64,000 nucleotides of DNA from Candidatus Doudnabacteria bacterium (lineage in GTDB: Bacteria; Patescibacteriota; Doudnabacteria; UBA920; O2-02-FULL-48-8), in assembly GCA_016186915.1 (NCBI GenBank), contig JACPKU010000006.1, positions 12,488-76,487 of the forward strand, written 5' to 3'. Shown piece after piece: positions 1,074 through 44,583 of this stretch. The first letter of the stretch is position 1. Every line of letters starts with the position of its first letter. Below the pieces are notes generated by a model. The model was not told the DNA's origin and made no database searches. It saw only the letters and a list, made by a program, of their open reading frames with translations. The position numbers and the translations under genes are program-made.

Positions 1074-1112
1074 ATCCGAATTATCCGAATTAACATCCGA
1101 ATTATCCGAAAC
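1074..1112. repeat. 4 tandem copies of ATCCGAA(TT/AC) immediately upstream of the CAP gene start
   Basis: atccgaatt atccgaattaac atccgaatt atccgaaacc; lies in the promoter/5'-UTR of the minus-strand gene. Confidence 0.6.
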
Positions 1113-2395: not shown

Positions 2396-2496
2396 TTCAA
2401 AAGTCAGAAGTCAAAATGCAAAATGAAAAGGTAAAATTAAAAAAGAACTTGATTTTTGATCTTTGATTTTTGGGTTGTTTATGAAAAACCAGGTTC

Positions 2497-2525
2497 TTGA
2501 CTGAAAGCCTAAAACCATATATACT
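2497..2525 (+). promoter_or_regulatory. Sigma70-type promoter TTGACT-17-TATACT for the rplJ-rplL operon
   Basis: -35 at 2497-2502 and -10 at 2520-2525 with exactly 17-nt spacing. Confidence 0.6.
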
Positions 2526-2559
2526 GGTTAAGAATTAAACAAGCCAAAGACCGTAGACG

Positions 2560-2692
2560 GCTAAAACGCCTTAAAAAACACAAGTCTACGCAGGAAAATG
2601 AGATCCTGAAATGAATTCAGGATTGCAAAACAGCGCAATGCTGAACTTGATTCAGCATCTCAAAATTCCGGCCTTTGGATCCGGGTTTTTTT
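2560..2692 (+). promoter_or_regulatory. Putative ribosomal protein L10 leader / attenuator (3 stem-loops plus terminator-like hairpin with U7)
   Basis: Hairpins cgtagac..gtctacg, atcctgaa..ttcaggat and atgctgaa..ttcagcat, then ccgg..ccgg followed by TTTTTTT (2686-2692) about 30 nt before the rplJ ATG. Confidence 0.45.
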
Positions 2693-2723
2693 ATTCTAAA
2701 TTCAAAATTCTATATTCTAAACT

Positions 2724-3245
2724 ATGGCGATTACACGTAAGCAAAAAGAAGAATCATTGAGAGAAGTGACCGAGGATTTAAAAAATGCCCGGGGAGTTGT
2801 GTTTGCGGAATATGCCGGACTGAGCGTTAAAGACATGGATAAGGTGCGCAAAGATTTGAGAAAAGAGAATGTAAAGTTCAAAGTTTTGAAAGTGACTCTT
2901 TTGAAAAAAGCGATGAATAGTCTGAATATGGATCTGGGCAAGTTTGCATATGCCGGACCTTTGGCCGTGGCGGTTTCAAAAGAAGAAGAAACCACACCGG
3001 CGCGCGTGATCAAGGGCTTGATGAAAAATTTCCCAACTTTAAAAATTGACGGCGGAATTTTTAATAACGAGATAGTCGCCCGGGACGTGGTTTTGCAGCT
3101 GGCCGCCCTGCCCAGCAAAGACCAACTGCTGGGACAACTGCTCTCGGTGATTGCGGGTCCGGCAAGAGGATTGGTTACCGTGCTTTCTGGAAATACCAGG
3201 GACTTGCTGCAAGTATTAAATGCAATCGGTGAAAGTAAGAAATAA
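2724..3245 (+). CDS. rplJ: 50S ribosomal protein L10
   Basis: MAITRKQKEE..VVFAEYAGLSVKDM..LRKENVKFKVLK typical uL10; upstream of rplL. Confidence 0.95.
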   Translation: MAITRKQKEESLREVTEDLKNARGVVFAEYAGLSVKDMDKVRKDLRKENVKFKVLKVTLLKKAMNSLNMDLGKFAYAGPLAVAVSKEEETTPARVIKGLMKNFPTLKIDGGIFNNEIVARDVVLQLAALPSKDQLLGQLLSVIAGPARGLVTVLSGNTRDLLQVLNAIGESKK

Positions 3246-3303
3246 TTTTCAATTTTCAAATTGATAATTACCCAAAAGGTCGATTATAGAAAGGAATAAA
3301 TTT

Positions 3304-3711
3304 ATGTCTGAAGAAGTAAAACAAGTTGCGGTTCCTGAAAAGTTTCAAAGTTTAGTGGGGGAGATTGAGAAACTTTCAGTGCTGGAACTTTCAGAGCTCG
3401 TCAAGGTTTTGGAAGAAAAGTTTGGTGTGTCCGCCGCGGCTCCAGTCGCAGTCGCCGCTGGACCTGCCGCGGCAGGAGATGGCGAAGGAGCTGAGGAAAA
3501 ATCTGAATTTACAGTTGAACTTACCGAGGCCGGCGCTAGCAAAATCAACGTGATTAAAGTCATCCGAGAAGTTATGGGAGTGGGTCTGAAGGAAGCAAAA
3601 GATTTAGTGGACGCCGCTCCAAAGATGGTCAAAGAGAACGTAGCGAAGGCCGAAGCAGAAGAGTTGAAGAAGAAGCTAGAAGAAGCGGGAGCGAAGGTGA
3701 GTTTGAAATAA
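3304..3711 (+). CDS. rplL: 50S ribosomal protein L7/L12
   Basis: N-terminal dimerisation helix, Ala/Pro hinge, C-terminal domain [24 protein letters not shown]..; good RBS gaaagga. Confidence 0.95.
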
Positions 3712-4230
3712 CGCTCGTGCAGCCGGCAAAACTACCGGCAGTAAAAGTCTGCTGACTTTTCTGCCTACTCGCTCGCGCCGAAGCAACTGCGCGGGTTAGT
3801 TTTGCAGCTGCACATCACGCTTCTTCCAGGGGATAGGGAGAGGAAAGGCGGGAGAAGAAGCGGGAGCGAAGGTAACATTGAAATAAGTCACTCGGCATAG
3901 GTTACAAATTTAACGGCTGTCAAACTCTGCTGAGTTTGCAGCCTGGAACGTCAGACGTTCCCTGCGTCCTCGGACCGTCGTCCTGCGGAAGCTAAATTTG
4001 CAACTATGCCTCGCGTCCCGTTCTTCCAGTGAAAAAGAAACGGATAGTGAGAGGAAGCGGGAGCGAAAGTTAGTTTGAAATAATTTAAAAACAGACGCTT
4101 GTTCGACACGCGGTAAATTTGACTGGACGTCAAATTTACCGGATTGTCTCACAAGGTCTGTTTTTAATTTGCTTCTGCTTTGGGGAAGAAATAGAAGGCA
4201 AGGAAAGCGGGCTGGACAAAGGGCTGATTT
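3679..4230 (+). repeat. Three tandem degenerate copies of the rplL 3' end (33 nt each: 3679-3711 genuine, 3854-3886, 4051-4083) separated by hairpin-rich ~140-165-nt spacers, plus a weaker fourth copy ~4170-4228
   Basis: Direct alignment of gaagaagcgggagcgaaggtgagtttgaaataa with copies 2 and 3 (29/33 identical each); copies 2 and 3 also share an upstream ttcttccag..gagaggaa segment; perfect hairpins at 3945-3961 and 4111-4141. Confidence 0.8.
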
Positions 4231-4329
4231 TCTGCTATAATAATTATAACGATACTATATGGGCTAGCCAAAAATGGACAAGTTAGCCAATATGGCGTGA
4301 GCGAAACCAAAAATAAAATAAAAAGAAAA

Positions 4330-4420
4330 GCGATACGAATATTGCGAATTCACACACGAAAGATGCGAATCTTTGCCTGATTCGTGTCATTCGCATGTTA
4401 TATTCGTAGTTTCGCATCGC
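4330..4420 (+). promoter_or_regulatory. Operator-like inverted repeats built from TGCGAAT/ATTCGCA and GATGCG/CGCATC upstream of the HTH gene
   Basis: gatacgaatattgcgaat..gatgcgaatctttgcctgattcgtgtcattcgcatg..tcgcatcgc read from the sequence. Confidence 0.4.
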
Positions 4421-4431
4421 TGACACAAAAG

Positions 4432-4668
4432 ATGGCAGAGGAGTTTTCTGGCAATAAATTGCTGACTTTGAAAGAAGCAGCAGCGCTTTCTCCGTACAGC
4501 GCGGAGTATTTAAATTTGCTTGCGAGAAAAAAGAAGATTAAGGCGCGCAAGATCGGCCGTGACTGGTTAATTACCAAGACCGATCTTTTTGATTACCTTA
4601 AAAAACAGCACAGTGAAAGCAGGAACAGGGTGTTGCAGCTAAGTAAGTACATAGGATTACTTTTATGA
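4432..4668 (+). CDS. Helix-turn-helix DNA-binding protein, excisionase/MerR-like (HTH_17) family
   Basis: LLTLKEAAALSPYSAEYLNLLARKKKIKARKIGRDWLITKTDLFDYL matches the excisionase-family HTH pattern; start chosen at MAEEF (the upstream ATG at 4384 lies inside the palindromic region). Confidence 0.55.
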   Translation: MAEEFSGNKLLTLKEAAALSPYSAEYLNLLARKKKIKARKIGRDWLITKTDLFDYLKKQHSESRNRVLQLSKYIGLLL

Positions 4669-5114
4669 AAAGCATGGAAGAAGATCTGCAAAATTTAAGC
4701 GGCTTCCACGCGGCAGCGGTCGTGATGATAGCGATTGGCATCGGGCTGATAGCCGCAATGCTATTTTTAGCCCTGCCTTCTGATCAACAACTAGCAGTCA
4801 AACAGTCTTTAATTGTTTTCGACGCTCATGAGTCTTTTGGTAAGCAGGTGGAAAGTTTAAGATTCGTATTTGAGATACAGCAAAAATATAATGAAGAATT
4901 TTATCTGGCCTCCACCCAAGTTCTTAGTTTCCCGGATGAAGCGTCCAGAGTAAGTGTGGCGCTGATAAAGTCTTTCGAATCGTTCGCTTTTTTCTCTGAC
5001 GTTTTCGTGGCCAACCAAAACCAAACTCGAATGGCGCAAAGTACCCAGACCAACCTCAGCGGTCAGATTCTTGGCGCATTTATTGAGAGGAGTCTTAACG
5101 CAGTTAGTCAGTAG
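4665..5114 (+). CDS. Small membrane-anchored hypothetical protein (N-terminus weakly prepilin-like; contains one IVFDAHESF motif)
   Basis: GF-HAAAVVMIAIGIGLIAA hydrophobic segment; ATGA overlap with the upstream gene; shares the FDxxxS/Q motif with the next gene. Confidence 0.5.
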   Translation: MKSMEEDLQNLSGFHAAAVVMIAIGIGLIAAMLFLALPSDQQLAVKQSLIVFDAHESFGKQVESLRFVFEIQQKYNEEFYLASTQVLSFPDEASRVSVALIKSFESFAFFSDVFVANQNQTRMAQSTQTNLSGQILGAFIERSLNAVSQ

Positions 5115-5116
5115 TT

Positions 5117-5953
5117 ATGCAAGACCAAAGAGCAACCAAACAGGATATCCACCACCATGAACTAGTAATACTTTTATCGCTAGCCGTGTTTAGCTTATCT
5201 TTTATCTCCACGGTTATGAGCTTCAAATACTCAAATGAGATAAAAAAAGCCGCAGTAATTTTTGACGCTTCAAGTCAATTAACGGACGATAAATATCAGG
5301 TACCAATTAGAGCTGTAAATCTCTTTTATAGTCTTGCCAGTATCGAAGCTGAAAAATTACTCAACGCCGAAGAAAGTTTCCAAGAAACGCAAGGCCTGAT
5401 CCTTAATATGTCAAAAGAATTTGCGGCCGCCGCAGACATCTTTGACGGCTCGTCCCAGTTTGCTGATGCCTATGAATTGACCGGTGCTTTTTCTAGCCGG
5501 TATATAGCCGCTCTAGATATCTTTGATGGTTCAGATCAGATAACAGATATTAGTAAACGTATAACCGGAAATATAACCCCGGCCCTGTCTCTGTTTGATG
5601 CTTCAGATCAGATAACAGGAATCAGATCCTATCATACAGTCATGTATGATAGTGCGGTGGCAGTCCTAGATCTGTTTGACGCCACCACTTTGTCATCGCG
5701 TCAGATTGCCACACCTCCTTCGGAGGTTCGCAATGGCGCACCAGGCCAAGTCGCGGGGGAGGAAATTAACTGGGAAACCCCGACGCAGACTTCGCCTGGT
5801 GCGGAGCAGGCAGAAGAGATTGCTCCTTCCTCCGCTGAAGCTACGGAGGGCGAGTCGTCGGCTTTGGAGGAACCAGAAGCTCCTCGCAATGGTGAGGTGA
5901 TTTCTGAACCAGGGCCACAAATAGAACAGCCGGCAATAGAGCCGGAGGAGTAA
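5117..5953 (+). CDS. Membrane-anchored repeat protein with five ~20-aa (I/L)FD(A/G)(S/T)xQ(I/L/F) repeats and an acidic Pro/Glu-rich tail
   Basis: VIFDASSQL, DIFDGSSQF, DIFDGSDQI, SLFDASDQI, DLFDATTLS read from the translation; N-terminal TM. Confidence 0.55.
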   Translation: MQDQRATKQDIHHHELVILLSLAVFSLSFISTVMSFKYSNEIKKAAVIFDASSQLTDDKYQVPIRAVNLFYSLASIEAEKLLNAEESFQETQGLILNMSKEFAAAADIFDGSSQFADAYELTGAFSSRYIAALDIFDGSDQITDISKRITGNITPALSLFDASDQITGIRSYHTVMYDSAVAVLDLFDATTLSSRQIATPPSEVRNGAPGQVAGEEINWETPTQTSPGAEQAEEIAPSSAEATEGESSALEEPEAPRNGEVISEPGPQIEQPAIEPEE

Positions 5954-6026
5954 ATGTGGTACGTAGATGACGCCCGTTTGTCGGTAAATTCAATATAACA
6001 AAAACAATTCTCCACTAAATAATTCA

Positions 6027-6680
6027 ATGTTTCATCGTCGAGCCACACAACTTTTTTACGGGATTTCAAGCTTAGTGATTTCAGTCGCTGTGTTTTTAGT
6101 CTTGCCATTCGGGTTTGGCGAGCTGCAGGAGTTTAAAAAGGACATAAGGAATCAATTTACGCAAGCCTTTATCCAAACAATAGGGGATCAGCCGTTTGTG
6201 GCTGACCACGTGAGTCTAGTCTGGTCTAGTATAAATAATTTCTATAATCAAGCAACAGACAGCACTCTGGCCTTGCTTGCGCCGGGTGGCAGCGAAGACG
6301 ATTTGATGAGGATTGCGTGGGGAGTGAGGGATCGATTTGCGGCGATTGTCCGTGATTTGGAATATGCGAGGACAGGCCGCTTCGACAGGCTCAGGACAGG
6401 AAGAGTGGCCGGAGAAAACAGCGATCCCCGCCTTCGTCAAGACTTCGGCGGGCAGGCGAATCTAACGAATATACATCCGAATGATCCGAAATTTATGACT
6501 GAAGAGCCTTTGAGGAATATTGTCCCGGAAAGCCTTTTGATCGATGATCAGCCGCGCAACAATGATTTTCCGTGGGTGACACTGCAAGACAATATCACTG
6601 GTCAATTTTATTGCGTGGCGATTTATGACGAGGAGGTAAATAAATATCTTGGGCCATGTAAGTTGGATTTAGGGGAATAA
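6027..6680 (+). CDS. Membrane-anchored hypothetical protein (FYNQATDSTLAL motif shared with the downstream paralogue)
   Basis: N-terminal TM; motif NNFYNQATDSTLALL compared with DEFYNAATDEATALF in the 6783 gene. Confidence 0.5.
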   Translation: MFHRRATQLFYGISSLVISVAVFLVLPFGFGELQEFKKDIRNQFTQAFIQTIGDQPFVADHVSLVWSSINNFYNQATDSTLALLAPGGSEDDLMRIAWGVRDRFAAIVRDLEYARTGRFDRLRTGRVAGENSDPRLRQDFGGQANLTNIHPNDPKFMTEEPLRNIVPESLLIDDQPRNNDFPWVTLQDNITGQFYCVAIYDEEVNKYLGPCKLDLGE

Positions 6681-6686
6681 ACCAAA

Positions 6687-6710
6687 AACCGCCTTTCGGC
6701 GGTTATGGTT
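6687..6710. terminator. Hairpin aaccgcc-tttc-ggcggtt after the 6027 gene (T-run is better on the minus strand)
   Basis: Perfect 7-bp stem; weak U-tract on the plus strand. Confidence 0.4.
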
Positions 6711-6782
6711 AAACTCTAACATAATGTTTTCAGTCGGGATTGTCATCTAAGAATATAGTAACAGAACAGAATAATTATAGCA

Positions 6783-7190
6783 ATGCCAAAAAGAAAAATA
6801 AAAAAGAATAGTTCTCGCAGGCACACGACGAGGAAGCCAAAACATTACCCAGTATATTATCTGGCGGCACTGGTGATTGCTTTTCTGCTTTTGGAAATCG
6901 CGTTGCTTGGCAGTGCCAGGATCAAAGATTGGCAGGAGAGTTTTGGGATTCTGGATGTATCTGAGCAATACGAAGACTTGGTAGATGATTTAAGCTTTAC
7001 TTTTAGTCCGATGGCGCAGGCGGTTTCAGCGGTTGATGAATTTTATAACGCAGCCACTGATGAGGCGACGGCTCTTTTCGACGCCACAGATAGTATCTAC
7101 GAAAATATGAAAGTTTACGAAAATACGAAAAAGTTTGCCCTCAGTGTTTTTAGTAACAGATCCGGCAGTGTAGCAGGAGCAAAAGAATAG
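6783..7190 (+). CDS. Small basic membrane-anchored protein, paralogue of the 5117/6027 family
   Basis: Lys/Arg-rich N-terminus, then TM, then EFYNAATDEATALFDATDSIYE combining both family motifs. Confidence 0.45.
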   Translation: MPKRKIKKNSSRRHTTRKPKHYPVYYLAALVIAFLLLEIALLGSARIKDWQESFGILDVSEQYEDLVDDLSFTFSPMAQAVSAVDEFYNAATDEATALFDATDSIYENMKVYENTKKFALSVFSNRSGSVAGAKE

Positions 7191-7229
7191 GTCGGATAAG
7201 TAAATATATGACCTATAATATTTATATAA

Positions 7230-10200
7230 ATGCTCAATAAAAAACAAACCAAGTTTATTACTAAAGGGTTTAAGATTCTAACCGGTGCAATATTCGTCCT
7301 GGCGGTTTTTGGATCTCTGGTTTCTCCGCAAGCTGCATCTTCAACCACTCTAACCATCCAAGGCGATCATTTTTTGTTAAACGGCCAGGCCAAGTTTTTG
7401 GTCTTGGCTGCTTATTTTGACGGCTTGGACGCGCCCAATGTGGGCGCGGATTTGGATTACCTCAAGTCCAAAGGAATTGACGGCGTGCGCGTGTTTCCAA
7501 ACTGGTGGGACACCACGACGCCGTTGATTTTTGGCAATACTTTAATGAACACGGACGGCAGTTTGGACGCGGGCAGATTAAATGATTTACGGAGTATCAT
7601 CAGCGCTGCCGACAGTCGAGGGATGGTAGTGGATGTGAGTTTTGCCCGCGAGACCGTGGATGGGCCGTGCAATACAGGTGGTAGAAATATGATGTGTGAA
7701 AATGAATACAAAAATGGTGTGGTCGCCACAGTGCAACAGTTGAGCAGTTACAGCAACGTGCTTTATGATTTGCAAAACGAATTTGACGGTGGCATTACGA
7801 ATTTATCCTCCAGTCACGTCTCGGATTTGAAAAATCGAGTGAGAGCCGCGGATTCGAGTGCGACGATTTCCGCCTCCACTGGCTCATATCCTGGCGCGGG
7901 CAGCGCGGCGGCAGGTTATACGAACCAATACGGGTTTGACTTTACCAATGTGCACAGCACGCACCTGACCAGCGCTTCTGGCGTGGCGGGCATGATCTCG
8001 CCGGCCCGTTCGGCAGGCAAGCCGGTTTATCTCGGCGAACCTTATCATTCCACTTTTATTTCCGGCGGCCAGGCGACGGCCTCCGAATTGTTAAATTTTG
8101 CCACGGAAACCAAAAGAACCGGAGCCGCGGCGTTTGTTTATCACACTCGCGCCGGCTTTATTCTGGACGGCTCGAGTTTCCAGGGGAATATGACCGCGGT
8201 GGAAACCAGCTTTCTTAACTCTCTCGCGAATTCTTTAAGTCAAACCACTTGGGGAGTCAATTTAATCAGCCCGCCGCCTCCACCGCCGCCTCCTGGTACT
8301 GATCCGACACCAAGCCCAACGGGTCGCGTAATTAGTTCGCTGAGCCCCACCACGGTTCAGCCGGGAGACACGATGACCATTGATGGTGTCAATCTTGACA
8401 GCACGGTTCAGATTTTCAACAGCAGCAATCTGAGAAGCACTTATGTTGGCCAGATCAATGCGTCTGAAACCCAGGTTACTTGGCTGATCCCTGCGGATTT
8501 AGCCAATGGTTCGTATAGGCTGCGGGTCGGGCCAAACCTGACTGATTATTCGAATTTAATGCCTTTCACAATCACAGGCAGCACTGTGCCACCACCGCCG
8601 CCTCCACCTCCACCACCACCGCCCATAGATTACAGTCCAGAGATACCAGATTGGGTTGACTGCAGCGCCATTCCGGAAGATCTGACCCTGTTATCAGAAT
8701 GGAATTTTTGGTGCGGGATTACGCCCCAGCCGCCACCACCGCCACCACCAGGCCAGGACCCAAGCAATCCTTTGAGCTTGCCCGGAAGTGGAGCTTATGG
8801 CATGAGTATGGCTTACAATCCGACTAACAATACTTTTTTGTATGTCAGCACTGAAGGAATCGGCACCCCGCCCAATGTCCAATCCCGGCTAATCGGCGCC
8901 ATTTTGGACGCTGACGACCTGGCTGTGATCGGTGGTAGTTTTCGGGTTGACCAAGGGGATGAATTCGCGGCCTCGCCCCAAGTGGTCTACAATCCTGACC
9001 AAGACCAGTTTTTGGTAGTGTGGGAGGATTCGCGCGCCGGCAATAACCGCCGGCACATTTACGGCCGGCTGTTTGGAGCAGACGGCAGTCCCTTGGGCAA
9101 TGACTTTGTGATTGTTGACTTGTTTGACGCGTTTTTGAACGATTTGATTTATGATGACGGCAATAAAAAATACGTGGTGCTGTTTGAAGCAGGCGAGCCG
9201 ATGTTTCGAACCGTGGATGCTTCCGGCAATTTAGGCCCCATAGTCAAAGTCGTACCGCAATTAACAGAGTACCAAGGACAAGGCAATTTTACTTACAATT
9301 CTAATTTGAATGAGTATTGGACCGTGTATGTGGCAGGAGTCAGCGGTTCTGACACGCAAGAGGAAGACGACCGGATAATGCTGATGAGGACTGACGCTAC
9401 CACGTTACAGCCTGTCGGTCAGCCAGTTCAATTAAGCGCCACCAGGCCAGCCAGAAACGGTTTTGCCGAACCAAAAATCGCGTATAGCAAGTATGACGGC
9501 GCGGCCATGACGGTTTGGCTGGAACGCGGCCGGCCTGGTGAGGGCGCAGGAGTCTATGGCCGGACAGTGTATGATGATTTAAGTTTATCAGGGGAATTTC
9601 CAGTGATTACGCCTGTTACTTCTCCCTACTCTGACCAATACGGCGCCCCGCAGCTTAATTACAATCCTTACACCGGCTTGTTTTCAGTCAGCACGCTGGA
9701 TAATAACGGCGGGACCATGCTGACGGAACTGCTGGTTGACGGGACTGTTTTAGGAGAAGATCAGGTAATCGGACCTACTGGGTCGCTGGGCAATTTCAAT
9801 CCGAACAGCTATGTTGGTCCGCAAGGGACGATTGTGGCAGCCTCCACGGATTTCGCCTCCACCAGTGCGACGATGAACCGAAGTCTGTTTGCCAACTTAG
9901 GCCCGGAAAGCCAGGGCGGGAGCGGCACGGTTTATCCGCCGGGAACCCCGCCAACTCCCGTGGACACCACGGTTTTGGGCAAACTGATCAGCCAGATTTA
10001 TCTCTGGTCGCTGGGAGTCTCGGCTTTGCTGGCCATGTTGATGATGGTGCTTGGCGGATATCTGGTTATGACTGCGGCGGGTAATGCTGAGCAATCTAGC
10101 AAAGGCAAAGAATTCATCTGGTCCGCAATAATTGGCATGGGGTTGTTGTTTGCTTCTTACCTAATATTAAACACAATCAACCCGGATCTGGTCAACTTTG

Positions 10201-10232
10201 ATCTGACCTCGATTAATCGGTTGGACGGGTAG
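7230..10232 (+). CDS. Large secreted multidomain surface protein: GH5-like (clan GH-A) TIM-barrel domain, polyproline linkers, IPT/TIG-like domain, C-terminal 2-TM VirB2/TrbC-type (T4SS-pilin-like) anchor
   Basis: Signal peptide; LYDLQNEFDG (NEx catalytic-acid motif of clan GH-A); runs of 8-12 Pro; C-terminal LWSLGVSALLAMLMMVLGGYLVMTAAGNAEQSSKGKEFIWSAIIGMGLLFASYLILNTINP two-helix module typical of T4SS-pilin-like tails in CPR surface proteins. Confidence 0.7.
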   Translation: MLNKKQTKFITKGFKILTGAIFVLAVFGSLVSPQAASSTTLTIQGDHFLLNGQAKFLVLAAYFDGLDAPNVGADLDYLKSKGIDGVRVFPNWWDTTTPLIFGNTLMNTDGSLDAGRLNDLRSIISAADSRGMVVDVSFARETVDGPCNTGGRNMMCENEYKNGVVATVQQLSSYSNVLYDLQNEFDGGITNLSSSHVSDLKNRVRAADSSATISASTGSYPGAGSAAAGYTNQYGFDFTNVHSTHLTSASGVAGMISPARSAGKPVYLGEPYHSTFISGGQATASELLNFATETKRTGAAAFVYHTRAGFILDGSSFQGNMTAVETSFLNSLANSLSQTTWGVNLISPPPPPPPPGTDPTPSPTGRVISSLSPTTVQPGDTMTIDGVNLDSTVQIFNSSNLRSTYVGQINASETQVTWLIPADLANGSYRLRVGPNLTDYSNLMPFTITGSTVPPPPPPPPPPPPIDYSPEIPDWVDCSAIPEDLTLLSEWNFWCGITPQPPPPPPPGQDPSNPLSLPGSGAYGMSMAYNPTNNTFLYVSTEGIGTPPNVQSRLIGAILDADDLAVIGGSFRVDQGDEFAASPQVVYNPDQDQFLVVWEDSRAGNNRRHIYGRLFGADGSPLGNDFVIVDLFDAFLNDLIYDDGNKKYVVLFEAGEPMFRTVDASGNLGPIVKVVPQLTEYQGQGNFTYNSNLNEYWTVYVAGVSGSDTQEEDDRIMLMRTDATTLQPVGQPVQLSATRPARNGFAEPKIAYSKYDGAAMTVWLERGRPGEGAGVYGRTVYDDLSLSGEFPVITPVTSPYSDQYGAPQLNYNPYTGLFSVSTLDNNGGTMLTELLVDGTVLGEDQVIGPTGSLGNFNPNSYVGPQGTIVAASTDFASTSATMNRSLFANLGPESQGGSGTVYPPGTPPTPVDTTVLGKLISQIYLWSLGVSALLAMLMMVLGGYLVMTAAGNAEQSSKGKEFIWSAIIGMGLLFASYLILNTINPDLVNFDLTSINRLDG

Positions 10233-12125
10233 TTAATAGGTTATTTTTAAAAGCTGATTTTGATCGAGGAGATAGAGACTGCGCTCTGTTTCGTCGATAT
10301 ACATGTCAGTGAGATCAGAACTGTTCGGGAAATAGATTTGATTGACAAGTTGACCTTGTTTGTTGAAAATTATCAATCTTTGCTTGGCTGGTTCTAAAAT
10401 ATATATTTCCGTGCCGATAAAAATCCTGCTTGCTTGGGTCATTGGATCAGTCAGAACTGCAAGCTCAAATGTTTGCTCTATGCCGCGCGAGAATTTTGAA
10501 AGCCTGTCAGGAAAAAGAACATAAACATCATTATCCACGCCGACATCCACGGCGCCCGACAAATCAGCCGCAGTGGTTAGGAACGGCTGAGAGGAGGCGT
10601 TGCCCCCGGCATCAAACGCCAATCTGAAAATTTGATTGGTGTTTTTGTCAATGACGTAGACGCGGTTGGGAGGGAGAAAAGCAAGTCCCAGCAGGTTCGA
10701 CCCGGCAAAGTCCCGGACCAAATCAAACTGGTTTAAGGATTCATTGATGCGGTAGAGTTGGTTTTCACTAATTACATAGTTGCCCAAATTTTCAACGTGG
10801 GCCAAGCCTTTGATATCAGTGCTGGTTGTGTTGAGCATGAACAAACTGTCTAGATTTTCGCTGTAGGTTAGGACGGTCTGTGTGCTTGAATTGGCGAATA
10901 TAAACCCTGATCCCGCGCGCGCAAATATGTCCGGATTTTGATCAAACGCCAGGAAGATTTCCGGGCTGTCAACCGTGCTGACTCGGTTAACCTTGTTATA
11001 TAAATCCGTTAAAAGTTGGTGGTAGGCAGAAGCTTGCTTATCGTCAAGTTTTTCTAATTTCGTAAATTCTAGCTGCGCTTTGTTTAACAGTTCAAAGGCC
11101 TGATCTTGGTTATTATAGAGCAGGGAAGATTCGGTTTCATTAATTTTCTCCACCAACACATTGATTTGGTTATCTATTGCCATGGCGTGTCGGGAGTTGG
11201 CTGATCTGATTCCGGTAACGATCAGGTTAAGTGCAAGCAAGACGACAAATAAAATGAAACTGATAAAAAAGAATTTTCCTGACGTTGATAAATTACCATA
11301 TGATTTAAAACGGGGGATTTTTATCGAGACAAAAAGTCGTTTGAATCTGCTAATCAGATTTCCCGGAAATGACCAAGGTTTTTTTTCAGTTTCGGCGGCT
11401 GTCACATCTTCGGGCAAAGGAGCATAAATCTCTTCTTCTGTCCCATAAGTGACAGTCTTGCCCAAGCTTTTTCCAAAGCGGAGCATAAAAGCGGCATATC
11501 CTTCGTCAGGTTCGGCAGAGTCCTGTAAAATTTTGGAAATCTTCAGGCAAGCATCGTCTGGCGGTGTATTTGTAAGTATTTGTTTGAATAATTCAAACGA
11601 TACGTAATTAAATACGTTCGTCGTGGTTAGAATCAAATCATCGCCTTCTTTAATTTTGCCCTGCATAAAATTTTGGAATATTTTAAGAGGGTGAGTGCTG
11701 GCTTCTTCGGCAGGCAGAAGCTCAAGAAGTTCTGAGTTTCTTCCGAGCCAAGCTCCCACCTGTCCCGTATTTGTCAAATAAATCTGATCGGAATACTTAA
11801 GAGCTAGGCAGCAAGAAAATTTTCCCAGCCAGCCCCTTCGGCCCTTGTGGGCGGTATCAGCAAGCTCTTCGTTGATCTGGGCCAGCGAAGTCTCAAATAA
11901 TGCATCGGCAGTAAGTTTTTTGTTTGCCTTTAATGTTCGGAGCACAATTTCAGAAATTTTTTTTAAATCAGAGGCTTCGGTTTTTTTTTGGATTTTTTGC
12001 AGCTGCGCCAACAAGAAAACTTGTGTGGTGGCATTTAGCTTCTCATCATACAGAATTATTGAGCTTTTTTTAGCCTCAAGTCCGGATAGATAAATTTGAT
12101 TGATTTGTGTTTCTAACTTGGCCAT
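10233..12125 (-). CDS. Membrane protein with N-terminal degenerate PP2C-like phosphatase domain, central TM and large extracytoplasmic C-terminal domain
   Basis: SCCLALKYSDQIYLTNTGQVGAWL and GDDLILTTTNVF resemble PP2C motifs, but the metal-binding DGHGG motif is not evident; single TM FFFISFILFVVLLALNLIV. Confidence 0.5.
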   Translation of the reverse strand: MAKLETQINQIYLSGLEAKKSSIILYDEKLNATTQVFLLAQLQKIQKKTEASDLKKISEIVLRTLKANKKLTADALFETSLAQINEELADTAHKGRRGWLGKFSCCLALKYSDQIYLTNTGQVGAWLGRNSELLELLPAEEASTHPLKIFQNFMQGKIKEGDDLILTTTNVFNYVSFELFKQILTNTPPDDACLKISKILQDSAEPDEGYAAFMLRFGKSLGKTVTYGTEEEIYAPLPEDVTAAETEKKPWSFPGNLISRFKRLFVSIKIPRFKSYGNLSTSGKFFFISFILFVVLLALNLIVTGIRSANSRHAMAIDNQINVLVEKINETESSLLYNNQDQAFELLNKAQLEFTKLEKLDDKQASAYHQLLTDLYNKVNRVSTVDSPEIFLAFDQNPDIFARAGSGFIFANSSTQTVLTYSENLDSLFMLNTTSTDIKGLAHVENLGNYVISENQLYRINESLNQFDLVRDFAGSNLLGLAFLPPNRVYVIDKNTNQIFRLAFDAGGNASSQPFLTTAADLSGAVDVGVDNDVYVLFPDRLSKFSRGIEQTFELAVLTDPMTQASRIFIGTEIYILEPAKQRLIIFNKQGQLVNQIYFPNSSDLTDMYIDETERSLYLLDQNQLLKITY

Positions 12126-12180: not shown

Positions 12181-12756
12181 ATGTTAGCAGAATTTCTATC
12201 ATCCAAGCAGAAAAGCAAGCTGGTCAATTTATTCCTCTCCAGTCCCAAGCGCAGTTTCTCATACACCGAATTGCGCCAGACCACCAAGTGTCCCAGCAAG
12301 CTTCTGCATCAAACAATTAAAGAGCTTACTAAGCTTGAATTTTTACTGTCGTTCCAAAAAGGCAGACATAAATTTTTTCAGATCAACAAGCACTTCGCCC
12401 TTTATCCGGAATTGATCGGTTTGATCAAGAAGCAGAAACAAATACCGAAAGATTTGCTGGTTAAGCAGGCGAGCAAGATAGGGGACTGTAAATTTGCGGC
12501 GCTTACCGGCGTGTTTGCCGGCCGGCCCAGGATGGAAACTGATGTTTTGTTCGTGGGCAAAGTCAGTCCGATGAGATTAAAAAGGTTTTTGAAATTGGCG
12601 GAGAAGTTTGCCGAGGGAGATGTGGGCTATACCATTTTTAGCTCCCAGGAGTTTGAGTATCGCAAAATTATGAATGACAGATTTATCAAAAATATCCTGG
12701 AAAACAACCCGGTGATTGTTGTGGACAAGACTAGCAAAAAAAAATCTAGAAAATAA
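12181..12756 (+). CDS. Hypothetical protein; possible winged-helix plus minimal nucleotidyltransferase (MNT-like) domain
   Basis: ALTGVFAGRPRMETDVLFVG resembles the GS-x9-13-D-x-D pol-beta-type NTase motif; N-terminal region resembles a wHTH. Confidence 0.4.
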   Translation: MLAEFLSSKQKSKLVNLFLSSPKRSFSYTELRQTTKCPSKLLHQTIKELTKLEFLLSFQKGRHKFFQINKHFALYPELIGLIKKQKQIPKDLLVKQASKIGDCKFAALTGVFAGRPRMETDVLFVGKVSPMRLKRFLKLAEKFAEGDVGYTIFSSQEFEYRKIMNDRFIKNILENNPVIVVDKTSKKKSRK

Positions 12757-40014: not shown

Positions 40015-41103
40015 ATGCAGTCATATTTATCCAATCCAATAAACACGCGTTCCCCCAAGGAAATTCATAGAATTCTCAAACTTGGCGATAATGTTGTGTT
40101 GCCTCTGCAGGCGGAACCTATGCCACGAAAGCCAAGCAAATTGATTTTGGCAGGCAGTTGGCTTTGGAGAAAAATTAAGCCGCATACTCCTAAGCTTTTT
40201 TATCCTGTGGTATTTATCGTGGCTTTTGCCTTTTTTTACACGCTATTCAATTTTTCTTCCTTGGTCAGCCAGGTGGACGCGGTGTTTAACAACCAATCGC
40301 AGGATGAAGTGATTTTGGGCGAAGATATCGGCGACTACTACGAATGGATTAGCCGCTATTACTTTGCCGTGAGCGACAAGAAGTTGCTTTCAGCCACCAA
40401 TGATATTGACGAGGACGGTCTTGCTAATTATGACGAGTTTGTTTTACAGACCAATCCCACTGTTCTTGACTCTGACAACGACGGCGTAAGCGACGGACTG
40501 GAGGTTATTAACCAAACCAACCCTTGGGGCCAAGGCAGCATGACCCAAGACCAGCTCAAATCAAGCGAGCCGCTTGATTTGATTATGATTAACAACCGAA
40601 TCAGTTTCAACATCGCAAATCATCAATCAAACGCTTCAAACAATCCGAAGATCGATTATGATTTGGAAAAACACGGCACGCTTTCAATCCCCAAACTTAA
40701 TCTGCAAGTGCCAATCGTCTGGACCAAAGATCCGGCAAGTTTCAGCGAAGACCTAAAGAATGGTGTGGTGCATTATCCAGGCACCGCGTTGCCCGGGGAG
40801 CCGGGAGTGGTATATATTGCCGGCCACTCTTCTGATTATATTTGGAACAACCATCCATATACTCGCGTCTTTGCCAAGCTGAATTTTCTAGAACCAGGCG
40901 ATGACGTCTTTGTGGATGTTACTGGAGCAGACGGACAAATTCGAAACTTTCGTTATGTGGTGACTGAAGAAAATGTATACAACCCAGACGATCAAGCACA
41001 GTTTATTGACGATTCGACCGCCAAGCTCAATCTTTCCACCTGTTGGCCGATTGGAACCCAGAGAGATAGATACGTGGTTTCTGCTGTTTTGGAAGGGATA
41101 TAA
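40015..41103 (+). CDS. Sortase-family transpeptidase with N-terminal TM and thrombospondin-type-3-like Ca-binding repeats
   Basis: Catalytic His in YIAGHS and Cys in LNLSTCWP (TLxTC-type) plus conserved R in RDRYVV; DIDEDGLANYDE..DSDNDGVSDGLE acidic DxDxDG repeats; alternative start at MPRKPS (40120). Confidence 0.8.
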   Translation: MQSYLSNPINTRSPKEIHRILKLGDNVVLPLQAEPMPRKPSKLILAGSWLWRKIKPHTPKLFYPVVFIVAFAFFYTLFNFSSLVSQVDAVFNNQSQDEVILGEDIGDYYEWISRYYFAVSDKKLLSATNDIDEDGLANYDEFVLQTNPTVLDSDNDGVSDGLEVINQTNPWGQGSMTQDQLKSSEPLDLIMINNRISFNIANHQSNASNNPKIDYDLEKHGTLSIPKLNLQVPIVWTKDPASFSEDLKNGVVHYPGTALPGEPGVVYIAGHSSDYIWNNHPYTRVFAKLNFLEPGDDVFVDVTGADGQIRNFRYVVTEENVYNPDDQAQFIDDSTAKLNLSTCWPIGTQRDRYVVSAVLEGI

Positions 41104-41202
41104 CCTTGACAATGGTGTTGACAATTGGCAAGATTTTTGCTAGCATTGTCAGTTAATAACTAAGCATTAATTAACATAAGCATTAATTAACACATTCAAT
41201 AT

Positions 41203-44200: not shown

Positions 44201-44583
44201 CCAACTTCGTCATTGAGGACAGCATTGCGGACATTCTGGAACTGGCTGACCTGCTTAGCTATTCTGGCGCCACATTTGACTCAAGCGCTCGGGTACTTCG
44301 ATGGCCGTCTGAAAATATTGGGGCCGGGCAAACTGTAGAGAAAAGATTCTCTGTCCGGGTAAAAAGCCCTGTTCCTGGCGGCACTGATCTGGTTATGACT
44401 AATGTCTACGGCAACACGGTCAGAGTACCGGTTGGCACCCCGCCTTCTGTTCCTCCTCCCGTGTATCCTCCGTACAAAGCTCCGCCCACCGGCCCTGCCA
44501 CCACTTTCAGTTTGATCTTGGCTGGCTTGACTGTCGCGGGAGCGTTCGGGATTAAAAAAATTAAGCAAGCCTCGAGAGCATGA
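41203..44583 (+). CDS. Large cell-surface protein: N-terminal TM, two fibronectin/Ig-like modules separated by polyPro linkers, about 6 DUF11 repeat domains, C-terminal sorting-signal-like tail
   Basis: Repeated L(S/T)(L/I)xK.VRNVTQG..F..SVSAQPNEQVEFRI.V...G...A.NV.VTD.LP modules (DUF11 pattern); C-terminal KAPPTGPATT + hydrophobic + KKIKQASRA. Confidence 0.8.
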   Translation: MNFIAARKNRYFIKSKTAKFVGLGFVLALTVSFIGFSLANHNSGTGIPVDTGWIDASRFVGSVEFDCGQTVGSVWGQRGDQFTIPGHVLNIPEGSYTIDIRAHYGFYEADPQAPQTNETMRVSTSVASRQIPDLNGHGGSRPDRDNCDQINANFRIYTNITRSPINYQDGGIRFAGLTSDSQSISIQAVRVHGTSTPPPPPPPQPCVPVGLIMPQSGQVFGANETNPAFQWQGTNRTFYILDITEDPNFSWWWNNGSGAGGGIQITSANFSDVTNTFYSQGHPAPGLAQAGKTYYWRVFAYNTDDPGAGCHSVVRSFSLQSTPPPPPPPPQKAQITLVKEVINNNGGNKQPSDFALHIAGHTLTSGQSVELNPGNYQATETQQAGYALLGWRGACDGSGSVTLQAGQNVTCVVTNDDQAQPTVSLSLVKNVRNVTQGQTTFVDSVSAQPNEQVEFRIQVAASGNTSAQNVVVTDTLPNNFNLSSGSLTNNLGNMSAGSTQIITLSATAASAFNFPIGSSTWINTATATASNANTVSDTAHVVVNRQITGTPSLTIDKTVRNVTAGQAIFSNSVSANPQDQVEFKVVVSNVGQATANNVVVTDTLPNNFNLSSGSLTNNLGNMSAGSTQIITLSATAASASNFPIGSSTWTNTATATASNTNTVSDTANVIVERDGPPGDAQLSITKEVRNVTQGVAFFSKSASAQPNEQVEFRIRVRSTGQTTANNVNLTDILPNNFVLNFAQTGAGVSGSNTQFSLGNMPTNTERTLSLFVTAASAANFPIGTSTHTNTATATASNANSVSDNASVVINRDGGGNGNPFLAITKEVRNLTDNTGYSHSVTADDSDRVEFRIVVRNTGSSNSTATNVRVTDFLPANLEFVASTLRIDSNTQFSNNLLGNIFLGNLSANQSKTITFEARVNANFNNTLINTATAFSDNTSPVNDSASVFVSRVVGGNIDLVLSKSAYNLTQGRDATAVTARAGDQIEYILRVENRGNATATNFVIEDSIADILELADLLSYSGATFDSSARVLRWPSENIGAGQTVEKRFSVRVKSPVPGGTDLVMTNVYGNTVRVPVGTPPSVPPPVYPPYKAPPTGPATTFSLILAGLTVAGAFGIKKIKQASRA
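42607..43215 (+). repeat. Intragenic ~200-bp near-identical (~90%) tandem duplication inside the DUF11 gene
   Basis: gtggtgactgatactctgccaaataactttaatcttagtt..caacatgtcagccggcagcactcaaatcataaccttgagcgc occurs at ~42613 and ~42997. Confidence 0.8.

What the first reader, a model, noticed from the sequence alone, without database searches (positions are those of the whole stretch)
4330..7190. Excisionase-family HTH gene followed by a family of small membrane-anchored proteins built from shuffled FDxSxQ and FYNxATD motifs
Directly after the rplL repeat array comes a palindrome-rich promoter (TGCGAAT/ATTCGCA inverted repeats) and an HTH_17-like gene. Four consecutive genes follow, each encoding an N-terminal TM anchor. 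Gene 2 has five ~20-aa repeats (I/L)FD(A/G)SxQ(I/L/F). Gene 1 has one such motif and a GF-HAAAVVMIAIGIGLIAA segment faintly reminiscent of a prepilin N-terminus (with Ala instead of Glu at +5). Genes 3 and 4 share FYN(Q/A)ATD(S/E)(T/A)LAL, and gene 4 also carries LFDATDSI. A mix-and-match motif family next to an integration-like scar suggests a diversifying surface or pilus-associated module, or cargo of a degraded mobile element.
Basis: partly seen in the sequence, partly recalled or inferred. Interest (0 to 1): 0.55.

Follow-up and report, generated by a model that had tools for sequence, protein, structure and literature searches.

The report
Conserved Doudnabacteria membrane-protein paralogue operon
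A small DNA-binding gene is followed by four related single-pass membrane proteins of an undescribed family; the set sits at one fixed chromosomal site across a group of ultra-small (CPR) bacteria, so it is a real lineage-specific envelope gene set of unknown function and not leftover mobile DNA or pilus subunits.

Summary
HTH_17 gene 4432-4668 is followed by four genes (4665-5114, 5117-5953, 6027-6680, 6783-7190). Each encodes one N-terminal TM helix and the reported motifs.

The motifs are not shuffled modules. The four proteins are collinear paralogues. Relatives carry a conserved triad (g1-, g4-, g3-type, in that order) between rplJ-rplL and mraZ-rsmH-ftsI in all 12 independent related lineages that show all three genes (metagenome/MAG contigs). 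The named ones are mostly Candidatus Doudnabacteria. Window g2 is an extra, very divergent g4-like copy with a five-fold repeat expansion and an acidic tail.

AlphaFold of g3 (pLDDT 80) shows a TM helix, three ecto-helices, a disordered linker and a small two-Cys beta-sheet. The FYN motif lies mid-helix. The FDxS/LLDxS motif is the helix-helix turn. A third motif, GxVAG(A)S, is shared by all types.

No Pfam, NCBIfam, PHROG, PADLOC, PDB-sequence or PDB-fold relative exists. No integrase lies in the 64 kb. The HTH is present in 8 of 13 lineages. The triad proteins are the fastest-evolving in the block (29-40% identity against 50-78% for most neighbours).

Best reading: an HTH-headed operon for a hetero-oligomeric extracytoplasmic envelope complex, function untested. 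The mobile-element and prepilin readings are rejected. Interest is moderate to low.

The parts
4213..4241 (+). Sigma-70-type promoter of the operon: TGGACA, 17-nt spacer, TG-extended TATAAT
   Evidence: It matches 11 of 12 consensus positions and has the TG extension. The same (T)TGACA-17-TGCTATAAT (TGCTATACT in L039) is found upstream of the operon in L039, L042, L044, L046, L033, L045 and L047.
4251..4271 (+). Conserved 21-nt element GATACTATATGGGCTAGCCAA at the predicted transcript start; candidate HTH operator or 5'-leader element
   Evidence: The degenerate pattern GATAYWRTATSGKYTAGCCMA occurs once in the window even at up to 3 mismatches, against 0.06 expected. It occurs once in each HTH-containing locus, always right after the -10. 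It is absent in HTH-less L033 and L045. HTH-less L047 has a diverged look-alike, so the operator role is an inference.
4333..4417 (.). Cluster of five ATGCGAAT-like sites in the 5' leader (three on +, two on -), specific to this organism
   Evidence: locates the sites. The leaders of relatives lack this sequence.
4432..4668 (+). HTH_17 (excisionase-fold) small DNA-binding protein, 78 aa; its stop overlaps the g1 start (ATGA)
   Evidence: Pfam PF12728 hit at 8.2e-10. PHROG excisionase families hit at 2.8e-07. It is 73% identical to the L042 orthologue, as conserved as RplL and MraZ.
4665..5114 (+). g1: g1-type bitopic membrane protein, 149 aa, shorter than its 148-232-aa relatives
   Evidence: It scores 99.9 bits on a g1-type HMM built without window sequences. 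TM segment at 10-40. Motifs are IVFDAHES, EEFYLAST and GQILGA.
5117..5953 (+). g2: lineage-specific divergent paralogue, 278 aa: TM, FY helix, five FDxS(x)Q units, GQVAGE, then a 73-aa acidic Glu/Ala/Pro-rich tail
   Evidence: Only itself was found among 5.8e9 proteins. Its best subfamily match is the g4 type at 17.5 bits. AF2 gives pLDDT 57: the N-terminal 110 aa are helical, the repeat region is low-confidence helices broken at the first two internal FD motifs (109-115, 136-141), and the tail is disordered. L031, the closest relative, also has a gene with a VAG motif and acidic tail upstream of its g3.
6027..6680 (+). g3: g3-type protein, 217 aa: TM, three-helix ectodomain, linker with GRVAGE, C-terminal two-Cys beta domain
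   Evidence: It scores 193.6 bits on the g3-type HMM. An exhaustive HMMER search found 95 cluster representatives in 1.84e9 proteins; at least two of the weakest are spurious eukaryotic repeat proteins. AF2 gives pLDDT 79.8.
6687..6704 (.). GC-rich hairpin AACCGCCTTTCGGCGGTT between g3 and g4; possible partial terminator or attenuator
   Evidence: There is no T-run on the + strand.
6783..7190 (+). g4: g4-type protein, 135 aa: Lys/Arg-rich N-terminus, TM with Glu, ILDVSEQ, DEFYNAATDEATALFDATDS, C-terminal GSVAGAKE
   Evidence: It scores 92.5 bits on the g4-type HMM. In relatives this type sits second, between g1 and g3.
7230..10232 (+). g5: adjacent 1000-aa surface protein: GH5-like domain, poly-Pro linkers, C-terminal VirB2-like T4SS_pilin membrane domain
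   Evidence: PF18895 hit at 7.6e-07 and PF00150 at 8.3e-06. A pilin-domain gene is seen in this slot in 6 of the 13 lineages whose downstream neighbour is visible, counting the window.
10233..12125 (-). Convergent 630-aa transmembrane protein with a beta-propeller-like ectodomain; syntenic partner of the block
   Evidence: A homologue or a similarly sized minus-strand gene (501-691 aa) is present in L030, L032, L034, L035, L042, L044, L046, L047, L048 and both JGI contigs. It is 42% identical to the L042 copy.
3678..4083 (+). Three copies of the last 34 nt of rplL, heading tandem units of 175 and 197 nt; upstream context, not part of the operon
   Evidence: The duplication is specific to this organism. 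It is reproduced in independent assemblies L001 and L002.

Best explanation
The locus is a vertically inherited chromosomal operon of a Candidatus Doudnabacteria (CPR/Patescibacteria) clade.

A strong extended -10 promoter (4213-4241) drives a small, highly conserved HTH_17 DNA-binding protein. This is tightly coupled to genes for paralogous single-pass membrane proteins of a previously undescribed family. The ancestral set is a triad of g1-type, g4-type and g3-type. This organism has added g2, a divergent g4-like copy with an internal repeat expansion, and has g4 after g3.

Each protein is anchored by a conserved N-terminal TM helix, probably N-in and C-out. Outside the membrane it carries a helical-hairpin or three-helix domain. 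Within that domain:
- The FYNxA(T/S) signature lies inside a helix.
- The (L/F)(F/L)DxS(x)Q signature marks the end of one helix, the turn, and the N-cap of the next. This is why duplicating the helix-turn unit repeats the motif.
- A conserved GxVAG(A)S peptide follows in a flexible segment. It is followed by nothing (g4 type), a short tail (window g1), a longer C-terminal region (g1-type relatives), an acidic tail (g2), or a disulfide-type beta domain (g3 type).

The most likely mechanism has three parts:
1. The three or four paralogues assemble through their TM helices and helical ectodomains into one hetero-oligomeric envelope or surface complex.
2. The GxVAG peptide acts as a docking strand for a partner.
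3. The HTH protein regulates the operon from the conserved element at the transcript start.

Shown: paralogy, conservation, synteny, fold class, motif placement, and absence of mobile-element features.

Inferred: topology, hetero-oligomerisation, the docking role of GxVAG, and autoregulation.

Unknown: the biochemical function.
For: Paralogy:
- Collinear pairwise alignments place the motifs in the same order in all four proteins.
- hhalign gives g4-type against g3-type probability 95.9%; for the ectodomain alone it gives 94.9%, E 4.5e-8.
- hhalign gives g1-type against g4-type 95.8%; for the ectodomain alone 82.6%.
- Cross-subfamily HMM hits reach 15-42 bits.

Orthology:
- On subfamily HMMs built without window sequences, window g1 scores 99.9 bits, g4 92.5 and g3 193.6.

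Synteny:
- Relatives show MS-channel, CAP, MltG, rplJ, rplL, [variable slot], (HTH), g1, g4, g3, [pilin slot], 630-aa (minus strand), 196-aa, 78-aa, mraZ, rsmH, ftsL, ftsI, murE.
- This holds in L030, L032-L041, two JGI contigs, L042/43, L044, L045, L046, L047 and L048.
- The triad order was confirmed by HMM.

Structure:
- AF2 of g3 with 55 sequences gives pLDDT 79.8.
- Helices run 2-25 (TM), 32-52, 57-84 and 88-116.
- FYN (72-78) lies mid-helix. LLAPGGSED (83-91) spans the end of helix 57-84, the 85-87 break and the start of helix 88-116.
- The GRVAGE region has pLDDT near 52-60. The beta-sheet 184-208 has pLDDT above 93 and carries invariant C196 and C211.
- In the g2 model, helices break at the first two internal FD motifs, residues 109-115 and 136-141.

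Motif census:
- A VAG-like motif occurs in 117 of 139 family sequences, against 10% of shuffles.

Operon organisation:
- The HTH stop overlaps the g1 start. In relatives the HTH-g1 gap is 0-3 nt in the five loci where gene calls give both coordinates, about 10 nt in L039 and about 20 nt in L030.
- The promoter is conserved.
- The 21-nt element is unique in the window and present in all five HTH-containing loci that have DNA.

Not mobile:
- No recombinase was found.
- g1-g4 have no credible PHROG hit (two marginal matches at E about 0.006-0.008 to unknown-function families) and no PADLOC hit.

Extracytoplasmic and fast-evolving:
- g4 has a net +10 N-terminal side.
- Identity to L042 is g1 29%, g4 29% and g3 40%, against 50-78% for neighbouring housekeeping genes and 73% for the HTH.
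Against: - No experiment or multimer prediction supports a complex.
- Topology by charge is clear only for g4 and g3.
- The HTH gene is missing directly upstream of the triad in 5 of 13 lineages: L033, L045, L034, L047 and L048. It is therefore not obligatory.
- HTH-less L047 carries a diverged look-alike of the 21-nt element. That element could simply be a conserved leader that tracks phylogeny.
- The repeat region of the g2 model has pLDDT near 40.
- The pTM of the g3 model is 0.32, so the relative packing of its parts is not established.
- Fold searches found nothing that would indicate a function.
Confidence: 0.5

Rival explanations
1. The triad is an accessory or assembly module for VirB2-like (T4SS_pilin) surface proteins. 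The small bitopic proteins would help insert, anchor or display the pilin-domain protein encoded immediately downstream (g5 here), and the GxVAG peptide or the g3 beta domain would contact it.
For: - A pilin-domain gene directly follows, often overlapping the g3-type gene. Sizes are 187 aa, 563 aa, 546 aa, 135 aa in L036, a partial gene in L045, and the 1000-aa g5 here.
- VirB2-like pilins are widespread in Patescibacteria, often occur in arrays, and their function there is unknown (PMC12102498).
Against: - The pilin gene is absent from the slot in L042/43, L046, L032, L035, L047 and L048.
- The L034 protein in this slot lacks the pilin domain.
- No VirB4, VirB6 or VirD4 was found in the 64-kb window.
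- T4SS_pilin domains are very common in CPR genomes, so adjacency may be coincidental.
Confidence: 0.17
2. The locus is a membrane-tethered signalling module. The bitopic proteins sense an envelope or host-contact cue and control the HTH_17 protein, for example by sequestering it through their conserved cytoplasmic N-termini, much as anti-sigma or anti-regulator proteins do.
For: - The HTH gene is tightly coupled to g1, with overlapping or nearly abutting stop and start in most loci.
- The N-terminal peptides and TM helices are among the best-conserved parts of each type: MKTDYKNLN in the g1 type and a K-rich N-terminus in the g4 type.
- The HTH is very highly conserved.
- A beta-propeller sensor-like transmembrane protein is a constant neighbour.
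Against: - The triad persists without an adjacent HTH in 5 of 13 lineages.
- Three or four paralogues is unusual for an anti-regulator.
- There is no similarity to known anti-sigma or regulator-binding domains.
Confidence: 0.1
3. One reading: the HTH is an excisionase, and the membrane proteins are cargo of a degraded integrative element that inserted at the rplL 3' end.
For: - The HTH matches the excisionase fold family.
- The rplL 3' end is present three times upstream.
- The rplL-to-HTH gap holds different genes in different relatives.
Against: - No integrase or transposase lies in the 64 kb.
- The triad occupies the same site in every related contig, including the most divergent.
- Its divergence scales with that of the flanking core genes.
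- GC content is not distinct from the flanks.
- The rplL-end copies lie 175-197 nt apart with only structured non-coding DNA between them, and relatives lack them.
- g1-g4 have no credible phage-family hits.
Confidence: 0.03
4. g1, and perhaps the others, are type IV (pseudo)pilins processed by a prepilin peptidase.
For: The window g1 has 'SGFHAAAVVMIAIGIGLIAA', which loosely resembles G|F-x-x-x-E followed by a hydrophobic helix.
Against: - There is no N_methyl (PF07963) or TIGR02532 hit at permissive thresholds.
- Orthologues have N-x-F-E/D-V with no Gly.
- There is no Glu at +5.
- Genuine N_methyl pilins exist elsewhere in related loci, next to mltG.
- The g3 model has a three-helix ectodomain, not a pilin alpha/beta fold.
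Confidence: 0.02

Closest known systems
HTH_17 / excisionase-family small DNA-binding proteins (Pfam PF12728, TIGR01764; by own knowledge includes Xis/AlpA/TorI-type excisionases and the stand-alone developmental regulator BldC)
   Same: The 78-aa product of 4432-4668 has the domain (39.2 bits). It has no effector domain. It is the first gene of an operon and sits next to a conserved palindrome-like element (GATAC-N-GTATC core in L046) at the transcript start.
   Different: It has no partner integrase or att sites. It is a syntenic core gene in 8 of 13 related lineages and as conserved as ribosomal proteins (73% identity). It scores just below the TIGR01764 cut-off. It therefore behaves like a chromosomal regulator of the BldC or MamR kind of usage, not like a recombination directionality factor.
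Sets of adjacent paralogous bitopic envelope proteins with helical ectodomains, such as PilN/PilO or FtsL/FtsB(DivIC) (own knowledge)
   Same: The proteins are small and have a single N-terminal TM helix and a mainly helical extracytoplasmic part. They are encoded side by side in a fixed order and conserved as a set, which in those known systems reflects hetero-oligomer formation.
   Different: There is no sequence or profile similarity and no fold match. The architecture differs: a three-helix domain, a GxVAG peptide, and a two-Cys beta domain in one member. A separate FtsL-like gene is present in the dcw cluster of relatives. No T4P assembly genes are nearby.
VirB2-like T4SS_pilin genes and arrays of Patescibacteria (PF18895; PMC12102498)
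   Same: Same organisms. The downstream neighbour g5 carries this domain. Both show fast divergence of tandem surface-protein paralogues; the paper reports about 25% mean identity within pilin arrays.
   Different: g1-g4 do not have the T4SS_pilin domain. They have one TM helix, not the two-TM hairpin. The pilin neighbour is seen in only about half of the lineages (6 of 13). No virB4 is nearby.
Type IV prepilins (N_methyl, PF07963)
   Same: N-terminal hydrophobic helix in a small secreted or membrane protein.
   Different: The cleavage/methylation motif is absent and not conserved, and the predicted fold differs.
T3SS tip/translocon proteins SipD and IpaC
   Same: Only sub-threshold helical matches: IpaC_SipC at E 0.0046, 17 bits against a cut-off of 25, for g1 only; SipD chains at E 0.16-0.21 for the family profile.
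   Different: The matches are below all thresholds, the IpaC_SipC match is seen in one member of 24, and there is no T3SS context. Treated as chance.

Membership tests
HTH_17 (PF12728) | Sequence match to the domain model above the gathering score | tested here: met
   39.2 bits against 27, E 8.2e-10, residues 10-59.
Excisionase (recombination directionality factor, TIGR01764 'excise') | Score above the NCBIfam cut-off | tested here: inconclusive
   27.9 bits against 28.8. PHROG excisionase families hit at 2.8e-07.
Excisionase (recombination directionality factor) | Partner integrase and att sites within a mobile element; patchy or variable genomic location | tested here: not met
   No integrase or transposase was found among ORFs of 120 aa or more in the 64 kb. 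The locus sits at a fixed position between rplL and mraZ in all related contigs.
Type IV prepilin / pseudopilin | G|(F/M)(T/S)LxE class III signal peptide (N_methyl domain) | tested here: not met
   No PF07963 or TIGR02532 hit at E up to 1 and 0.1 respectively. The Gly is absent in g1 orthologues and there is no Glu at +5.
T4SS_pilin / VirB2-like (PF18895) | Two-TM hairpin pilin domain | tested here: not met
   g1-g4 have no hit and a single TM segment. Only the neighbour g5 has the domain, at 29.6 bits against 26.6.
Integrated mobile element cargo | Atypical composition, flanking direct repeats enclosing the genes, presence/absence polymorphism among relatives | tested here: not met
   GC is 0.41-0.50, as in the flanks. 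The rplL-end repeats lie entirely upstream and do not flank the genes. The triad is present in every relative.
Doudnabacteria 'g1/g4/g3' bitopic triad (family defined here) | Single N-terminal TM helix, N(E/N)FYxxA(T/S) helix motif, and GxVAG(A)S peptide | tested here: met
   All four window proteins meet these features. Subfamily HMM scores are 92-194 bits for g1, g3 and g4. g2 scores only 17.5 bits, making it a divergent member.
Doudnabacteria 'g1/g4/g3' bitopic triad (family defined here) | Gene order g1-g4-g3 between rplL and the 630-aa/mraZ block | tested here: not met
   The position is met. The order here is g1-g2-g3-g4, against g1-g4-g3 in all 12 related lineages that show all three genes. 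This is a rearranged, expanded variant.
Tandem-repeat protein (g2) | Internal repeats beyond chance, with DNA-level similarity | tested here: met
   Five motif copies against a maximum of 2 in 1e5 shuffles. Two 32-nt units are 88% identical.
Hetero-oligomeric envelope complex | Physical interaction of the paralogues; surface or membrane location | not testable with these tools
   No multimer prediction or proteomics was available. The claim is inferred from conserved co-occurrence and conserved TM helices only.

The most novel reading that the evidence does not exclude
The g1/g4/g3 triad is a previously unrecognised, clade-wide cell-surface machine of Doudnabacteria. It would use a shared GxVAG docking strand and a disulfide-stabilised beta domain to hold or present VirB2-like pilin-domain proteins (or host-contact factors) in an organism that lacks a nearby T4SS core. 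That would make it a new kind of pilin-display or host-interaction platform for an episymbiotic CPR bacterium, under rapid evolutionary pressure.
Probability: 0.1. Interest if true: 0.6.

Novelty: new variant of a known kind. Interest (0 to 1): 0.33.

Why it matters
CPR/Patescibacteria genomes consist largely of unannotated small membrane proteins, and how their envelopes and host-contact surfaces are built is an open question.

This work gives four 'hypothetical proteins' a definable family:
- three orthologous types plus one lineage-specific expansion;
- diagnostic motifs;
- a medium-confidence fold for one member;
- a fixed genomic address;
- a candidate regulator and a candidate cis element.

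This is enough to seed a new family model, to annotate roughly 90 or more sequence clusters for the g3 type alone, and to design multimer predictions or metaproteomic searches.

It also removes a false lead. The excisionase-fold gene and the duplicated rplL ends do not mark a mobile element.

The function remains unknown, and the family appears restricted to one candidate phylum. The general impact is therefore modest.

Tried and rejected
1. Pfam, NCBIfam, PHROGs and PADLOC scans of g1-g4 gave nothing above threshold. The IpaC_SipC, pLS20_p028 and DUF5301 matches are sub-threshold and were treated as chance.

2. The word-indexed search of 5.8e9 proteins with g2 returned only g2 itself.

3. The genome-contig scan anchored on RplJ returned unrelated taxa (Tenacibaculum, Saccharibacteria) and not the source genome. 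The scan was wasted.

4. The third word-indexed search, with the whole-family alignment, returned mostly g1-type proteins. Lys-rich words saturated the 8000-candidate limit.

6. Profile searches of PDB sequences with the g3 family and with the whole family found nothing significant.

It was rerun with permitted rows, but the repeat region stayed at low confidence.

8. The cluster look-up for taxonomy of divergent g3-type members returned no organism names.

9. Rfam on 2400-7300 found only the L10 leader, so the conserved leader element and the rplL-downstream structures match no known RNA family.

10. I considered signal-peptidase cleavage at V-A-G. I rejected it because the motif lies about 100 residues from the TM helix.

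11. I considered the ATGCGAAT palindromes as the HTH operator. I set this aside because relatives with a nearly identical HTH lack them.

12. An apparent rplL-end duplication in L048 proved to be an internal insertion or possible assembly chimera, not the same phenomenon.

Full report
**What is there**

The window is a chromosomal stretch of a Candidatus Doudnabacteria (CPR) genome. g2 and g3 are identical to NCBI MAG proteins HYW51_01530 and HYW51_01535, which lie on a 420-kb contig. The gene order runs as follows:

| Feature | Coordinates |
|---|---|
| MltG | 1316-2395 |
| L10 leader | 2526-2701 |
| rplJ | 2724-3245 |
| rplL | 3304-3711 |
| HTH_17 gene | 4432-4668 |
| g1 | 4665-5114 |
| g2 | 5117-5953 |
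| g3 | 6027-6680 |
| g4 | 6783-7190 |
| g5 (1000 aa, GH5-like plus T4SS_pilin) | 7230-10232 |
| 630-aa transmembrane protein (minus strand) | 10233-12125 |
| 191-aa protein | 12181-12756 |
| mraZ, rsmH, ftsI, murE | downstream |

The rest of the 64 kb is ordinary housekeeping and envelope genes. No integrase, transposase or T4SS ATPase was found.

**Checking the observation**

- HTH_17 is confirmed at 39.2 bits.
- Each of g1-g4 has exactly one N-terminal hydrophobic helix.
- The FD motif occurs five times in g2, against at most two in 100,000 shuffles. Two of the repeat units are still 88% identical at the DNA level.
- The FY motif is in all four proteins, not two.
- A third motif, GxVAG, is also shared by all four.
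- The TGCGAAT/ATTCGCA sites are a genuine local cluster. They lie in the 5' leader, and relatives lack them.
- The promoter is TGGACA-17-TGCTATAAT at 4213-4241.

**The proteins are paralogues, not shuffled modules**

Pairwise alignments are collinear. The order is TM, then (DWxxG)xx[ILV][LF]D[VMA]S, then about 25 aa, then N(E/N)FYxxA(T/S)...LLDxS, then GxVAG.

The homologues came from several searches:
- the g3 search;
- a JGI metagenome scan;
- an exhaustive HMMER search, which found 95 representatives in 1.84e9 proteins, nearly all 180-250 aa (a few of the weakest hits are spurious eukaryotic repeat proteins);
- a family-profile search.

These homologues define three orthologous types. Scores on type HMMs built without the window sequences:

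| Window protein | Best type | Score (bits) |
|---|---|---|
| g1 | g1-type | 99.9 |
| g4 | g4-type | 92.5 |
| g3 | g3-type | 193.6 |
| g2 | g4-type (weak) | 17.5 |

Profile-profile comparison links the types:
- g4-type against g3-type: probability 95.9%; ectodomain only 94.9%, E 4.5e-8.
- g1-type against g4-type: probability 95.8%; ectodomain only 82.6%.

**Conserved chromosomal synteny**

Every related contig with enough sequence shows the same arrangement: MS-channel, CAP, MltG, rplJ, rplL, a variable slot, usually the HTH_17 gene, then g1-type, g4-type, g3-type, a second variable slot, the roughly 630-aa protein on the opposite strand, a 196-aa and a 78-aa protein, and then mraZ, rsmH, ftsL, ftsI, murE. 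The triad order was confirmed by HMM. This includes the two most divergent g3-type relatives examined, L047 and L048.

- The HTH gene is present in 8 lineages. It is absent directly upstream of g1 in 5: L033, L045, L034, L047 and L048.
- The slot after g3 holds a VirB2-like pilin-domain gene of 135 to 1000 aa in 6 of 13 lineages, counting the window. It holds a g5-like protein without the pilin domain in L034, and no pilin-domain gene in the rest.
- The window is a rearranged, expanded version with order g1-g2-g3-g4.
- Its closest relative, L031 (g3 52% identical), also has a gene ending in GNVAGEN plus an acidic tail upstream of g3. g2 is therefore a young lineage-specific paralogue.

**Evolutionary rate**

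Identities against L042:

| Protein | Identity to L042 |
|---|---|
| RplL | 78% |
| HTH | 73% |
| MraZ | 71% |
| RplJ | 66% |
| 191-aa protein | 63% |
| FtsI | 59% |
| RsmH | 56% |
| MltG | 55% |
| CAP/YkwD | 53% |
| MurE | 50% |
| 630-aa protein | 42% |
| g3 | 40% |
| g1 | 29% |
| g4 | 29% |

The triad is thus the fastest-evolving part of the block, while its regulator-like partner is among the slowest. Seven independent assemblies encode an identical g2, so there is no sign of active hypervariation.

**Structure**

AF2 of g3 with a 55-sequence alignment gives pLDDT 79.8:
- a TM helix at 2-25;
- three ecto-helices at 32-52, 57-84 and 88-116, separated by the invariant GDQP turn and by APG;
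- a disordered stretch at 117-180 that contains GRVAGE (pLDDT about 52-60);
- a confident three-stranded sheet at 184-208 carrying the invariant C196 and C211.

FYN (72-78) therefore lies inside helix 57-84. The segment homologous to LFDATDS/LLDxS (LLAPGGSED) spans the end of that helix, the turn, and the N-cap of the next helix.

This explains why duplicating a helix-turn unit in g2 multiplies the FDxSxQ motif. The g2 model is poor in the repeat region (pLDDT about 40), but it is helical with breaks at the first two internal FD motifs, and the acidic tail is disordered.

**Regulation**

The promoter is conserved in all loci.

Immediately after the -10 there is a 21-nt element, GATAYWRTATSGKYTAGCCMA, at window 4251-4271.
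- It occurs once in the window, even when 3 mismatches are allowed.
- It occurs once in each of the five HTH-containing lineages for which DNA was available.
- Two HTH-less loci with the same promoter lack it.
- HTH-less L047 has a diverged look-alike.

The operator interpretation is therefore plausible but could reflect phylogeny.

In the window the HTH stop overlaps the g1 start. In relatives the gap is 0-3 nt in five loci and about 10-20 nt in L039 and L030, which indicates co-expression.

**Interpretation**

The best-supported reading is a vertically inherited operon for a set of paralogous, membrane-anchored, extracytoplasmic helical proteins that probably act together as one envelope or surface complex. 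An HTH_17 protein acts as its dedicated regulator in most lineages.

- Shown: family, paralogy, synteny, fold class, motif placement, non-mobility.
- Inferred: topology, hetero-oligomerisation, a docking role for GxVAG, autoregulation.

Rivals are a pilin-accessory role (0.17), a membrane-tethered signalling module controlling the HTH (0.10), mobile-element cargo (0.03) and pseudopilins (0.02).

**Comparison with known systems**

- The HTH is a member of HTH_17. It fails the contextual tests for an excisionase.
- g1-g4 fail the tests for prepilins and for T4SS pilins.
- They match no described family in Pfam, NCBIfam, PHROGs, PADLOC or the PDB.
- They work most like other adjacent sets of small bitopic helical envelope proteins (PilN/PilO, FtsL/FtsB), but without detectable homology.
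- The paper on Patescibacteria T4SS (PMC12102498) documents abundant, fast-diverging VirB2-like pilin arrays of unknown function. It gives context for the neighbour g5 only.

**Verdict**

This is a real, previously undescribed, lineage-restricted protein family in a conserved operon. Novelty: a new variant of a generic kind. Interest is moderate to low (0.33) until a function or partner is shown.

Noticed in passing
window 3678-4212: The last 34 nt of rplL occur three times (3678, 3853, 4050; 91% identity). They head tandem units of 175 and 197 nt, each folding into a strong multi-stem structure (-50 to -66 kcal/mol). The array is reproduced in independent assemblies L001 and L002, and none of the relatives checked has it. 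L039 has one related structure with the same outer stem (GCAAAACTA/TAGTTTTGC). There is no Rfam match. It looks like a tandem duplication of the rplL 3' end plus a structured 3' UTR, not an att scar.
   Followed up: partly
window 2526-2701: A ribosomal protein L10 leader (RF00557) lies upstream of rplJ at 41.5 bits, just under the gathering score of 44 (E 2e-4).
   Followed up: no
window 12181-12756: The 191-aa protein matches the PADLOC candidate defence family PDC-M05A (E 3e-20). Yet it is a syntenic core gene (63% identical in L042), and a 188-214-aa gene occupies the same slot in most related contigs, which sits oddly with a defence role.
   Followed up: no
window 7230-10232 and the equivalent slot in L034, L036, L044, L045: g5 combines a GH5-like domain, three poly-proline linkers, repeated beta domains and a C-terminal VirB2-like T4SS_pilin membrane domain. 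In relatives the same slot holds a bare 135-aa pilin, fusions of 187-563 aa, a 677-aa version without the pilin domain, or nothing. The pilin domain appears to serve as an exchangeable membrane anchor for surface enzymes or adhesins.
   Followed up: partly
window 10233-12125 (minus strand): A conserved 630-aa protein has a cytoplasmic N-domain, one central TM helix, and an NHL/beta-propeller-like ectodomain. The matches are weak: PknD sensor at E 0.016 and DUF5128 at 0.03. Its stop codon directly abuts the g5 stop (10232/10233).
   Followed up: no
L042 7739-9559, L043 467-2287, L046 857-3221, against window 3712-4212: The gap between rplL and the HTH promoter is a variable slot. It holds a 606-aa Flg_new_2 protein in L042/L043, three genes in L046, and the rplL-end repeat array in the window.
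   Followed up: partly
window 40015-44583: A sortase gene (with a TSP3 repeat) is followed by a 1126-aa DUF11/SpaA-like surface protein. This may be a sortase-dependent surface fibre in a CPR genome.
   Followed up: no
window 1074-1102: Three ATCCGAAT copies at a 9-12-nt pitch lie just upstream of the minus-strand YkwD/DalA-like gene (580-1056), between it and mltG.
   Followed up: no
L048 6380-6560: The rplL of this distant relative carries an internal insertion or duplication of about 60 nt that breaks its C-terminus. The normal C-terminal coding sequence resumes right after it. This is possibly an assembly chimera.
   Followed up: partly
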